Positions 9,001 to 12,000 of a stretch of DNA of 29,140 nt are shown here, piece by piece. Origin of the DNA: Candidatus Micrarchaeota archaeon (lineage in GTDB: Archaea; B1Sed10-29); contig CAYLXZ010000009.1 of NCBI GenBank assembly GCA_964388265.1, positions 1-29,140 of the forward strand. The letters are read 5' to 3'. A program made the position numbers. Numbering within the stretch: the first letter of the stretch is position 1; every line of letters starts with the position of its first letter.

Positions 9001-12000
9001 GGAAAACTAAAACCAGGCTACAGACTAATGAACCAAGAAGGAAAAAAACTAGGAGAAGTAGAAAGCATACAAATCAAAGAAGAAAACATAGATCTCGCCG
9101 AAAAAGGAGACGAAGTCGCAGTAGCCATATCAAACGTCACAGTAGGCAGACAGATAGAAGAAGGAGAAACACTCTACACAGACGTACCCGTAGACGAAAC
9201 TTACGATCTTGAAGAAGAAGGATTCAAAAACAAACAATTACTAAGAGAAATAAGAAGAATAAAGAGGTGAAACAGATGAAGATAGTAGTATCAGACCCAA
9301 AAGAAGGAAGAACATACCAGAAAGAAATAGATGAAGACGAAGAAAAAGCACTGTACAGAAAGAGAATAGGACAAGAGATACAAGGAAGTCTCCTGGACCT
9401 AAACGGATACACACTAAAGATAACAGGAGGAAGCGACAAACAAGGATTTCCAATGAGAAAAGGAGTAAACACCACAGAAAGAAGAAAAGTACTACTCTCC
9501 AGCGGAACAGGGTTCAATCCCAAGAAAAAAGGAATCAAAAGAAGAAAAACAGTAAGAGGAGAAATAGTAAACAAAGAAATCGAGCAACTTAACCTAAAAG
9601 TAACAAAAGAAGGCAAGAAAGACCTAAAAGTCCTATTCGGACTAGAAGAAGAACCAGAAGAAACAAAAGAAGAGGAAAAAGAAGAAACAGAGACAGAAGA
9701 AGCTGAATCAGAAGAGAAAGAAGAAACAGAAACTGAAGAAGAGACGGAAGAACAAGAAAAAGACGAAGAAGCAGAAGAAGAAACGGAAGAACAAGAAGAA
9801 AAGGAACCTGAAGAAGAAAATGAAAAAGAGACAGAAGAAGTCGAATGCCCAGAATGTGGAGAGACCTTTGACTCGGAAAAAGGAATGAAAATACACAAAT
9901 CCCAAGCACATTAAATAGAAAACAGAACAAATAAAAAGAAAAGGAGTGGATCAAAATACCCGAACCAAAACAACCAGAAGTAAACATAGGCCTATCAGGA
10001 CACGTAGACCACGGAAAGACATCAGTAGTCAAACAACTAAGCGGAAAATGGACAGACAGACACTCAGAAGAACTGAAAAGAGGAATAACAATGAAGCTAG
10101 GGTATGCAGACACCACATTCTACAAATGCAAAGACACAGAGAAATACACAGCCAAGAAAGACGAATGCGAAGACCCAGAGACACTTAGAAAAATATCCTT
10201 CGTGGACTGCCCGGGCCACGAAACACTCATGACAGTGACACTGTCCGGAGCAAGCATAATGGACGGAGCACTCCTAGTGATAGCAGCAAACGAAGAATGC
10301 CCACAACCACAAACAAAAGAACACCTATCCGCCCTAGAAATAGCGGAAATAGACAACATAGTAATAGTTCAAACAAAAATAGATCTAGTGGACAAAGAAG
10401 AAGCCAAGGAACACAAAGAAAAGATAGAGGAATTCGTAGAAGGAACAATAGCAGAAGACGCTCCAATAATTCCAGTGTCCTCACACCACGAAATAAACTT
10501 CAATACACTGATAAAAGCAATAGAAGAAGAAATACCCACTCCAGAAAGAGATCCAGACAAACCAGGAAGAATCCAAATAGCAAGATCCTTCGACATAAAC
10601 AAGCCAGGATCACAGATAAAAAACATAAAAGGAGGAGTAATCGGAGGATCACTAATACAAGGAGAACTAGAAAAAGGAGACAAAATAGAGATAGTTCCAG
10701 GAATAAAGGAAGATGGAGAAACCCAGAAAATAGAAACAGAGATAACCTCACTATCCACAGAGAACCATGAAATAGAAAAAGCAAAGCCAGGAGGACTAAT
10801 AGGAGTCCAAACAAAACTAGATCCATCCCTAACCAAAGGAGACAACCTAATAGGATGCATAGCAGGAGAACCAGGAACACTACCATCAGTAAGAAAAGAA
10901 CTAGAAATAGAACCAACACTATTCAAAGAGAGCGTGGACTTCGAAGAAGTAAACCCACTAAAAGTCAACGAAAACCTAGTGCTAAACTCAGGCACAGCAA
11001 CCGTACCAGGAACCGTTGAAAAAGTCTACGGCCAAGAAAAAGCAGAAATAAAACTAGGAAAACCACTAGCCGTAGAAAAAGGATCCAAAATAGCAATATC
11101 ACGGAAATCCAAATCCAGATGGACCCTAATAGGATACGGAATAGTCAAATAACCACAGTTAAAATCATGAAAATCATACTAGACACAAACTTCCTAACAA
11201 TACCAGAAGAAAAAAAGATAGACATATTCACAGAAATAAAAAACAAGAAACCAAAAGCAAAGTTCATAACATTAAAATCAGTGGAAAAAGAACTAGATAA
11301 ATTAAACACTAAAGCAAGTGAAGTAGGAAAGCAATTATTAAAAGAGAAAAACATAAAAATCATAGAGCAAAACCAAGAAGCACACACCGACGACAATATA
11401 GTAAAACTCGCTGAAGAAGAAAACGCAGCAGTAGCCACAAACGACAAGGAACTGAGAAAAAGATGCAGAAAAAGAAACATCTCAACCATATACCTCAGAA
11501 GCAATAAAAAAATCGAAATAGAGTGATAACATGGGAAAAGGAATGAACTTATGGAAAGACATCGAAAAAGGACCAAACCCACCAAAAGACATGAACATAG
11601 TGATAGAAATACCAAGAAGAAGCAGAAACAAATACGAATACCACCATGAAAAAGGATACTTCAAGCTAGACAGAGTAATATACTCACCAGTTCACTACCC
11701 AGGAGACTACGGCTTCATCCCACAGACACTATCAGACGACGGAGACCCACTCGACACAATCGTACTCACAGAAGAAGCAACCTTCCCAGGATGCATAATA
11801 GAAGCCAGAGCAATAGGAGTACTAAGAATGGAAGACGAAACCGGAATAGACGACAAGATACTAGCAGCACCAGCAAAAGATCCAAGAAAAGCAGAATACA
11901 CAGACATAGAAGACGTGAACGAACACAAAAGAACCGAAATCTACCACTTCTTCAGCGTATACAAAGAACTAGAAAAACACAAATGGGTAGAGATCAAAGA

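What a model noticed while it worked through the whole genome (the two positions that open the first line are those of the whole stretch)
9276..9914. One near-identical C2H2 zinc finger grafted onto seven unrelated proteins, ribosomal protein eS6 among them
A 22-residue classical C2H2 finger, C-P-x-C-G-x-x-F-D-[ST]-E-[KR]-G-[ML]-x-I-H-x-x-x-x-H, 50-77% identical between copies, sits at the very N- or C-end or inside seven otherwise unrelated proteins: ribosomal protein eS6 (g00390, after a 70-residue acidic linker), four membrane proteins (g00317, g00376, g00436, g00746), a 645-aa coiled-coil protein beside the archaeosortase (g00472) and g00374. I read the finger as a portable docking tag that brings these proteins to one common partner (a nucleic acid or a protein), so that in this lineage ribosomes and several membrane proteins share an address. 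New would be a lineage-specific, shuffled C2H2 module in archaea and a zinc-finger-bearing eS6.
Evidence so far: All-against-all BLASTP picked up the shared stretch, sequences in call 68; a regular expression finds 7 proteins and no further six-frame ORF; alignment of the 7 copies: 7 invariant columns C4 C7 F11 G16 I19 H20 H25, mean column identity 73%. Profile search over the phylum: 13 of 31 genomes with a match at E<=0.01; 2-7 copies in 6 of 6 genomes of this family, 4 in one genome of another class, single weak hits elsewhere. eS6 frames are ~130-180 aa in most of the phylum and 194-244 aa (acidic tail) in this family, but the finger matches of the sister genomes lie on other contigs than their eS6 genes, so the eS6 fusion is special to this genome. 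Pfam zf-C2H2 reaches only E 1e-3 on g00436.
(Added by a program. Inside this text positions count along the whole contig: contig position 1 is position 1 of the stretch shown here. "Call 12" and the like, gene names such as g00115 and contig names such as C1 are that model's own, and its searches are not shown. The text may have been shortened before it was handed on; [...] marks where a part breaks off. The agent that wrote the report below was given it as the finding of a first reader that could run no searches.)

Follow-up and report, generated by a model that had tools for sequence, protein, structure and literature searches.

The report
Ribosomal protein eS6 with tethered zinc finger
A tiny salt-lake archaeon makes its ribosomal protein eS6 with a long acidic tail that ends in a classical zinc finger, one copy of a small portable domain that related salt-loving archaea attach to ribosomal proteins, RNA polymerase and membrane proteins; what the finger binds is not known.

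Summary
The sole eS6 gene (9276-9914) encodes an eS6 core, a ~65-residue acidic linker and a canonical C2H2 finger. A generic C2H2 pattern hits the genome 7 times (about 1 expected), and all 7 are one subtype.

- The finger is not lineage-specific. A genome scan gave 92 relatives, mostly in hypersaline DPANN archaea and a few Halobacteria.
- Ribosomal fusions recur: uS4 in a sister genus, uS3 in another family of the phylum, and eL31 and uL24 elsewhere. Rpo4 and A-ATPase subunit D also carry it.
- In this family the eS6 and uS4 tails carry swappable end-modules, either the finger or an unrelated ~50-residue helical module.
- The eS6 finger is most like two fingers of the same genome, so it looks like a recent internal copy. 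I found no other eS6-finger fusion.
- The finger is better conserved than its host protein in 15 of 15 ortholog pairs.

I read it as a tethered binding head with one conserved ligand, and I favour nucleic acid slightly over a protein hub. The ligand is untested. My literature searches found no description. This scan noted related fusions (eL31, uL24, the helical module) earlier on other DNA.

The parts
7522..9270 (+). aIF5B (translation initiation GTPase) gene, upstream neighbour; conserved synteny
   Evidence: ORF; 65-69% identical to the gene upstream of eS6 in four sister genomes, and its last 30 residues (90%) at the cut end of the fifth locus
9276..9914 (+). eS6 gene with tail and finger: 212 aa plus stop; the only eS6 gene found in the genome
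   Evidence: one eS6 match per genome
9276..9638 (+). eS6 core domain (residues 1-121)
   Evidence: Pfam PF01092 154.2 bits (cut-off 26); NCBIfam NF003294 164.4 bits (cut-off 135)
9639..9836 (+). Acidic, low-complexity linker (residues ~122-187, E/T/K-rich); predicted disordered
   Evidence: Sequence. Its last 10 residues have mean pLDDT 57. Sister eS6 proteins have comparable charged tails.
9837..9911 (+). C2H2 zinc finger (residues 188-212; zinc ligands C191, C194, H207, H212), at the very C-terminus
   Evidence: Pattern hit; alignment A1. Pfam zf-C2H2_4 E 0.006, below its cut-off. AlphaFold2 gives a beta-beta-alpha fold with pLDDT 93 over the finger. Foldseek superposes it on solved C2H2 fingers at 0.3-1.0 A over 23-27 residues.
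9956..11152 (+). aIF2-gamma gene, downstream neighbour; conserved synteny. The start is probably the ATA at 9956.
   Evidence: 63-73% identical to the sister genes

Best explanation
Shown. The only eS6 of this genome is a three-part protein: a normal eS6 core, a ~65-residue acidic flexible linker, and a terminal classical C2H2 (beta-beta-alpha, H-x4-H) finger. The finger belongs to one subtype with the consensus C-[PE]-x-C-G-[KER]-[ET]-F-D-[ST]-E-[RK]-G-[LM]-[KH]-I-H-x-x-Q-x-H. Halophilic DPANN archaea use this subtype as a portable module. It usually sits at a protein end on a charged linker, on the cytoplasmic side of membrane proteins and on parts of the gene-expression machinery.

Inferred history. 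In this family the C-terminal tails of eS6 and uS4 are attachment sites for exchangeable end-modules. In this genome an internal copy of the finger, closest to those of g00746 and g00472, took the place that a ~50-residue helical module holds on eS6 in the sister genus.

Inferred mechanism. The finger is a tethered binding head that recognises the same conserved ligand on every host. I favour nucleic acid bound without sequence specificity: RNA at or near the small subunit for eS6, uS4 and uS3. On this reading the tail raises the local concentration of RNA at the ribosome surface or anchors the ribosome to it, and membrane-protein copies hold the same ligand at the membrane. Zinc binding, translation of the tail and the ligand itself are not shown.
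For: Domain identity:
- The spacing and hydrophobic core positions are canonical. Among 106 unique copies F is 97%, L/M 90% and G 92%.
- AlphaFold2 gives pLDDT 93 over the finger.
- A profile of the finger matches solved C2H2 fingers, about 20 bits per finger; Aart scores E 4e-24 summed over its six fingers.
- Foldseek gives rmsd 0.3-1.0 A.

One ligand for all hosts:
- The helix positions are near-invariant across all hosts and lineages.
- The finger is 59-82% identical between orthologs where the rest of the host is 30-51%, in 15 of 15 pairs.

Recent internal origin of the eS6 copy:
- Its nearest neighbour is g00746 of the same genome (19 of 22 residues). g00746 and g00472 share 20 of 22 residues and 91% of bases, with 18 of 20 shared codons identical.
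- Older placements cluster by host class instead.

Module swap:
- Genus g2 carries the helical module on both eS6 and uS4. G005 carries the finger on uS4 and nothing on eS6. G000 carries the finger on eS6 and the helical module on uS4.

Lean towards nucleic acid:
- Many hosts are nucleic-acid machines. Among the 65 hosts scanned: eL31 in 3, uS3 in 2, uL24 in 1, Rpb4 in 1, HNH-type in 3, NTP_transf_2 in 3. In the phylum there are also uS4, uS3, Rpo4 and an SMC-like coiled-coil protein.
- At the same eS6 tail position, two other eS6 representatives carry an HhH domain that passes Pfam's cut-off (32.7 and 34.7 bits against 27).
- From recall, not a call: the G-K before the core F and the first His are the usual phosphate contacts of C2H2 fingers.
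Against: No ligand was tested.
- Mean net charge of the 22-residue finger is about 0, and on eS6 it follows a strongly acidic linker. Both are unusual for a nucleic-acid binder, although halophile proteins are acidic in general.
- The positions that read bases in DNA-binding fingers hold S/T, R/K, G and I. The conserved G and hydrophobic I would suit a protein interface as well.
- Many hosts have no link to nucleic acids. In one search these are 8 DsbA-like ectoproteins and 2 A-ATPase D subunits; 20 small two-TM proteins come, and a glycosyltransferase.
- The eS6 fusion is a singleton in one genome of 82% completeness, so selection on this particular fusion cannot be shown.
- No RNA or protein data show that the tail is made.
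Confidence: 0.4

Rival explanations
1. Protein-docking tag. The finger binds one conserved protein hub, so finger-bearing ribosomes, RNA polymerase and membrane proteins are brought to the same partner.
For: The whole finger surface is conserved, including a hydrophobic I/V/L (93%) and a G (92%) at exposed helix positions, and net charge is about 0. The finger is the best-conserved part of every host. Many hosts are membrane proteins with the finger on the cytoplasmic side. There is a precedent of like design: Haloferax CdpC has a membrane anchor, a long disordered linker and a zinc-binding end domain that binds FtsZ1 (bioRxiv 10.64898/2026.07.16.738847, passages read). CdpC's domain is a zinc ribbon, not a C2H2 finger.
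Against: No candidate hub was identified. The host list is rich in nucleic-acid machines. Known nucleic-acid binders (HhH) occupy the same eS6 tail position elsewhere.
Confidence: 0.3
2. There is no specific ligand. The finger is a small, very stable folded cap at the free end of a disordered charged tail, protecting the tail from terminus-dependent proteolysis or fixing membrane topology, or it acts as a zinc store. Any small stable domain would do.
For: The finger usually sits at the extreme N- or C-terminus next to long low-complexity linkers. At the same tail position it is interchangeable with an unrelated helical module. G005 eS6 has the tail with no module at all.
Against: Conservation extends to residues not needed for the fold (D, S/T, E, R/K, Q). 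Internal placements exist: g00472, Rpo4, and cytoplasmic tails with more sequence after the finger. The subtype is kept across phyla.
Confidence: 0.15
3. The eS6 fusion itself is a young, neutral accident. A finger cassette was copied onto the end of the tail, and the result has no function, or the end is not translated or is removed.
For: It is a singleton. None of 52 metagenome eS6 frames carries it, nor do the 116 other eS6-motif proteins among the best 150 representatives, and it is absent from all 5 sister genomes. Its sequence is nearly that of two other fingers of the same genome.
Against: The frame is intact and is the only eS6 gene. The same position carries a module in the sister genus, and uS4, uS3, eL31 and uL24 fusions are kept across genera or families. 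The sequence is identical in contigs from two samples.
Confidence: 0.12
4. Assembly chimera: the GAA-rich linker joined eS6 to a finger from another locus.
For: The linker is low-complexity, and many unrelated contigs of the laid runs touch it and then run on unlike the window (loose ends).
Against: A 2,259-base contig (9196-10300) and, from a second sample, a 651-base contig (9591-10241) cross linker, finger, stop and the aIF2-gamma start with 0 differences. The finger lies inside the conserved aIF5B - eS6 - aIF2-gamma order, 31 bases before the next gene's ribosome-binding region. The two samples belong to one study, so they are not fully independent.
Confidence: 0.03

Closest known systems
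Classical C2H2 zinc fingers (Pfam PF00096 / PF13894; e.g. Zif268, the designed consensus finger 1MEY, SALL4)
   Same: Same ligand spacing, same F and L/M core positions, the C-P-x-C-G-K-x-F start and the beta-beta-alpha fold.
   Different: It is a single finger, not an array, and has no TGEKP-type linker. It uses H-x4-H spacing. The helix residues are invariant across hosts rather than varied. Net charge is about 0. It is attached to ribosomal, RNA polymerase and membrane proteins of archaea.
Other ribosomal-protein fusions with this finger: uS4 (sister genus), uS3 (another family of the phylum and a MAG titled Micrarchaeota), eL31 with two fingers, uL24 (hypersaline MAGs)
   Same: The same finger subtype sits at the end of a charged linker on a ribosomal protein. 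This scan noted the eL31 and uL24 cases earlier.
   Different: The carrier protein differs. The uS3 copies use H-x3-H spacing. The eS6 carrier was seen only in this genome.
eS6 with other tethered end domains: the helical module of the sister genus, and HhH domains on two other eS6 representatives
   Same: An eS6 core, a long charged linker and a small terminal domain at the same position.
   Different: The folds are unrelated: three predicted helices at low confidence (pLDDT 66), or HhH. The helical module is restricted to eS6 and uS4 of two genera of this family.
Archaeal ribosomal stalk protein aP1 (recalled knowledge, no call)
   Same: A ribosomal protein with a flexible acidic linker that presents a conserved terminal binding element away from the ribosome surface.
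   Different: The aP1 tip is a short peptide that recruits translation GTPases and sits on the large subunit. Here the tip is a folded zinc finger on a small-subunit protein, and its ligand is unknown.
Haloferax volcanii C(P)XCG zinc-finger micro-proteins and CdpC
   Same: Halophile zinc-binding mini-domains that begin with C-P-x-C-G. CdpC joins a membrane anchor, a long disordered linker and a zinc-binding protein-docking head (passages read).
   Different: Those are C4 or C3H zinc ribbons and are mostly free-standing proteins under 70 aa. This is a C2H2 beta-beta-alpha finger used as a domain of larger proteins.

Membership tests
Classical C2H2 zinc finger (PF00096 / PF13894) | Ligand pattern C-x2-4-C-x12-H-x3-5-H | tested here: met
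   C-x2-C-x12-H-x4-H in all 7 copies of the genome and in 106 unique relatives
Classical C2H2 zinc finger (PF00096 / PF13894) | Conserved hydrophobic core (F after the second Cys, L/M three residues before the first His) | tested here: met
   F 97%, L/M 90% of 106 copies; F invariant in the 7
Classical C2H2 zinc finger (PF00096 / PF13894) | Beta-hairpin plus helix fold | tested here: met
   Prediction only. AlphaFold2 gives pLDDT 93 over the finger, with strands at 12-13 and 20-21 and a helix at 24-34 of the 35-residue piece. Foldseek gives rmsd 0.3-1.0 A to solved fingers, but E-values of 0.3 or more because the domain is short.
Classical C2H2 zinc finger (PF00096 / PF13894) | Score over Pfam's gathering cut-off | tested here: not met
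   The eS6 copy scores 17.6, 16.0 and 15.8 bits against cut-offs of 27, 25 and 25.2; the other six copies are similar. The cut-off is met by the uS3 copy (25.6 against 25.2) and by two-finger proteins (34-44 bits). A single short finger rarely reaches the cut-off.
Classical C2H2 zinc finger (PF00096 / PF13894) | Binds one zinc ion | not testable with these tools
   No experiment was possible.
Ribosomal protein eS6 (PF01092; NCBIfam NF003294) | Full-length match over the curated cut-offs | tested here: met
   154.2 bits (cut-off 26), residues 1-121; 164.4 bits (cut-off 135)
Ribosomal protein eS6 (PF01092; NCBIfam NF003294) | Single-copy gene in the conserved neighbourhood | tested here: met
   One eS6 match in each of the 28 genomes that have a match, of 31 searched. 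The aIF5B - eS6 - aIF2-gamma order is kept in the sisters.
Haloarchaeal C(P)XCG zinc-finger micro-proteins | Two C(P)XCG motifs in a protein of about 70 aa or less | tested here: not met
   The finger has one C-P-x-C-G plus H-x4-H, and its hosts are 167-645 aa. The definition is taken from passages of PMC11241148.
Ubiquitin-binding zinc finger (UBZ, PF18439) | Match to the family profile | tested here: inconclusive
   Only E 0.18 on g00436; no hit on eS6.

The most novel reading that the evidence does not exclude
The finger and the exchangeable helical module are alternative heads of one tether system. In ultrasmall halophilic archaea this system ties ribosomes (through eS6, uS4, uS3, eL31, uL24), RNA polymerase (through Rpo4) and a set of membrane proteins to one shared hub, possibly the ribosome or its RNA itself. 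Transcription, translation and membrane insertion would then be physically organised by a lineage-spread family of tags on flexible linkers.
Probability: 0.15. Interest if true: 0.85.

Novelty: new variant of a known kind. Interest (0 to 1): 0.6.

Why it matters
Ribosomal proteins are among the most conservative proteins known, and the classical C2H2 finger is usually thought of as a eukaryotic transcription-factor domain. Here a single archaeal C2H2 finger behaves as a mobile building block. It has been attached several times independently, on long flexible tails, to small- and large-subunit ribosomal proteins, to RNA polymerase and to membrane proteins in salt-adapted, ultrasmall archaea. 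On eS6 and uS4 it can be swapped for an unrelated module.

If the finger has one ligand, finding it would show how these minimal cells organise their gene-expression machinery. It would also give a testable case of ribosome specialisation by add-on domains. None of my five literature searches on this topic returned a paper on such fusions.

Tried and rejected
- Complex prediction of the finger (A5, with zinc) against the helical module (A4): 'no answer', score 0.01 against a mark of 0.32. This is no evidence either way.
- Word-based homolog search with eS6 residues 171-212: it returned only the query itself out of 5 candidates, so it gave no census.
- The search for related loci with the 32-row alignment A3 failed because no stretch was conserved enough. 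I repeated it with the 7-row A1.
- Helical module: no Pfam match. AlphaFold2 gave three helices at pLDDT 66. Foldseek against the PDB gave nothing at E<=0.001. Its fold and function stay open.
- Viral origin of the finger: 22 weak relatives in viral contigs, of which 1 of the 19 finger matches I printed carries the subtype signature. No case for a viral source.
- A mobile cassette with its own flanks: the 90 bases on either side of the seven copies are no more alike than background, 13-56% ungapped.
- Expression: no RNA holder is listed among the runs.
- Runs X3 and X4, from other hypersaline studies, gave only short or diverged pieces; the best is 276 bases with 14 differences over the eS6 core. 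They say nothing about the finger.
- tblastn for uS3, eL31, uL24 and A-ATPase D in this genome, using distant queries, found only the finger parts. These genes were not found with those queries in an 82%-complete genome. The genome's Rpo4 (contig C2) aligns without a finger.
- My first aIF2-gamma query was out of frame. I repeated it in frame.
I then ran the nearest-neighbour count from the stored alignment file.
- Literature: searches returned no paper on C2H2 fingers on archaeal ribosomal proteins. I saw listings only, except for passages of three papers. Subscription journals are not covered.
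Full report
**What is at the site**

The ORF from ATG 9276 to the stop at 9912-9914 encodes 212 residues.
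- Residues 1-121 are a full eS6 core: Pfam PF01092 at 154.2 bits against a cut-off of 26, and NCBIfam equivalog NF003294 at 164.4 bits against 135.
- Residues ~122-187 are an E/T/K-rich, low-complexity linker.
- Residues 191-212 read C-P-x-C-G-x-x-F-D-S-E-K-G-M-K-I-H-x4-H and end the protein.

It is the only eS6 gene found; each genome of the phylum with a match has exactly one. The minus-strand ORF 9224-9898 is the complement of the GAA-rich linker, and I take it for an artefact.

**Is it more than chance, and is it real DNA?**

Twenty shuffles give a mean of 1.15 and a maximum of 3; the reversed pattern gives 2.

The linker is low-complexity and could invite mis-assembly. Against that, a 2,259-base contig of the likely source run and a 651-base contig from a second sample of the same study cross linker, finger, stop and the next gene's start without a difference. 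The order aIF5B - eS6 - aIF2-gamma is also kept in the sister genomes.

**The domain**

Single copies stay under Pfam's cut-offs, at about 16-20 bits. That is usual for one short finger. The uS3 copy reaches the cut-off (25.6 against 25.2), and two-finger proteins score 34-44 bits.
- A 22-row alignment folds as beta-beta-alpha with pLDDT 93 over the finger and 57 over the preceding linker.
- Its profile matches solved classical fingers such as Aart, the consensus finger and SALL4.
- Foldseek superposes it on solved fingers at 0.3-1.0 A.

I file it as a classical C2H2 finger. Zinc binding is untested.

**Hosts in this genome and family**

Four of the seven hosts have hydrophobic membrane-type segments. 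g00472 is a 645-aa coiled-coil protein next to an archaeosortase-type gene. g00374 has only a weak acetyltransferase hint (E 0.11).

All 6 genomes of the family carry 2-7 copies. Orthologs of five of the seven hosts keep the finger in sister genomes. In 15 of 15 ortholog pairs the finger is more conserved (59-82%) than the rest of the protein (30-51%).

Sister genomes add further hosts:
- uS4 in G005 (NCBIfam uS4 at 214.9 bits against 138; finger at residues 201-223)
- Rpo4/RNA polymerase subunit F in G005 (Pfam Rpb4 at 43.9 bits against 25.6)
- a glycosyltransferase
- the cytoplasmic tail of a large surface protein

**Beyond the family**

In the phylum, 14 of 31 genomes have a match at E<=0.01.
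- In 4 of 5 genomes of family f6 the match is a C-terminal finger on uS3, after an acidic/alanine-rich linker.
- G020 has four copies. I read three: two membrane proteins and a PRC-barrel protein.

A scan of one genome per prokaryote species gave 92 relatives, of which the best 80 loci were kept. By record title these are mostly Nanohaloarchaea and hypersaline MAGs labelled Aenigmatarchaeota, Iainarchaeum or Micrarchaeota, with a few Halobacteria.

I read 86 host frames from those loci.
- Twenty are a conserved 108-136-aa two-TM protein with an acidic linker and a C-terminal finger. I set these aside by a motif.
- One frame of 28 aa was dropped.
- The other 65 were scanned against Pfam at E<=1e-5.

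| Host domain | Proteins |
|---|---|
| DsbA/thioredoxin ectodomain behind an N-terminal finger and a TM segment | 8 |
| eL31, with two fingers | 3 |
| NTP_transf_2 | 3 |
| HNH-type | 3 |
| uS3 | 2 |
| A-ATPase subunit D | 2 |
| uL24 | 1 |
| Rpb4 | 1 |

Most of the remaining proteins had no family. The module is therefore neither lineage-specific nor special to eS6. This scan had already noted the eL31 and uL24 fusions on other DNA. I confirmed both independently.

**The tails of eS6 and uS4 are module sockets**

| Lineage | eS6 tail ends in | uS4 tail ends in |
|---|---|---|
| Genus g2 | ~50-residue helical module | same helical module |
| G005 (genus g3) | charged tail only | the finger |
| This genome (g1) | the finger | helical module |

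- In this genome the uS4 reading crosses a 10-N scaffold gap on contig C36.
- The helical module has no Pfam match and is confined to two genera of this family, 5 of 31 genomes.

Further afield, two eS6 representatives end in an HhH domain that passes Pfam's cut-off. Many metagenome eS6 proteins end in yet another conserved tail.

**Origin of the eS6 copy**

Its nearest neighbour among 32 copies is g00746 of the same genome, at 19 of 22 residues. g00746 and g00472 share 20 of 22 residues and 91% of bases, with 18 of 20 shared codons identical. Older placements cluster by host class across genomes. The flanks show no shared DNA.

I found no other eS6-finger fusion:
- none in the 5 sister genomes
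- none among the 116 other eS6-motif proteins in the best 150 of 1,323 representatives

The fusion looks like a recent internal copy that replaced the earlier end-module. Because it is a singleton, selection on it cannot be shown.

**How it may work**

Across 106 unique copies nearly every position is constrained, including exposed helix positions: S/T 91%, R/K 87%, G 92%, I/V/L 93%. Mean net charge is about 0. Invariance across unrelated hosts argues for one ligand.

I lean slightly towards nucleic acid (0.40) over a protein hub (0.30).
- For nucleic acid: so many hosts are nucleic-acid machines, and HhH domains occupy the same eS6 position elsewhere.
- For a protein: the neutral charge, the acidic linker, the conserved glycine and isoleucine, and the many membrane hosts.
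- A ligand-free 'cap' role (0.15) and a neutral accident for this one fusion (0.12) are not excluded.
- One complex prediction gave no verdict.

**Novelty**

My searches returned no paper describing C2H2 fingers on archaeal ribosomal proteins (mostly listings). The domain and the idea of ribosomal-protein extensions are known. What appears undescribed is the portable single finger on flexible tails across ribosome, polymerase and membrane proteins, together with the module swapping on eS6 and uS4.

Noticed in passing
window 9932-10015: The aIF2-gamma frame has no ATG, GTG or TTG between the stop at 9932-9934 and its GTPase G1 motif. The sister genes start with Met at the position that is ATA (9956-9958) here, 7-13 bases after GGAGTGG. 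This is probably a non-canonical ATA start. Contigs from two samples agree with the window.
   Followed up: partly
G000 contig C36, about 600-1500 (locus L138): This genome's uS4 gene runs into a 10-N scaffold gap. Behind the gap, in another frame, lies the ~50-residue helical module that ends eS6 and uS4 in the sister genus. uS4 here most likely carries that module.
   Followed up: partly
proteins P0021, P0110 (and P0068): Other archaeal eS6 proteins end, after a charged linker, in a helix-hairpin-helix domain (HHH_5 at 32.7 and 34.7 bits, cut-off 27). One has a weak HeH/LEM-like end. The eS6 C-terminus is a repeated attachment point for small domains.
   Followed up: partly
loci L158, L159, L165, L167-L172, L175, L176, L179-L184, L186, L189, L191 (metagenome eS6 genes): Many eS6 proteins of other uncultured archaea share a further conserved C-terminal tail, roughly S-A-K-E-x-L-[IV]-K-x-S-L-E-N-V-G followed by a basic end. 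I did not identify it.
   Followed up: no
loci L055, L057, L058, L061, L064-L066, L068, L071, L074-L076, L080, L082, L090, L092, L095, L096, L108, L116: Twenty Nanohaloarchaeal or related genomes share a 108-136-aa protein with two TM segments, an acidic linker and the same C-terminal finger. It is the most widely kept host of the module.
   Followed up: no
loci L086:1832-2566 and L107:1826-2566: A-type ATP synthase subunit D (the rotor stalk) carries a C-terminal finger of this subtype in two hypersaline archaeal genomes. A tethered domain on a rotating subunit is odd.
   Followed up: no
locus L133 (3-614 and 2444-2965): In one MAG both uS3 and uL24, in the same ribosomal-protein gene cluster, end in a C2H2 finger.
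   Followed up: partly
G000 contig C11, 22200-22300 (g00472, residues ~551-571): The coiled-coil protein has a second, degenerate finger (C-x2-C-x11-H-x4-H) near its C-terminus, between two short helix-rich stretches.
   Followed up: no
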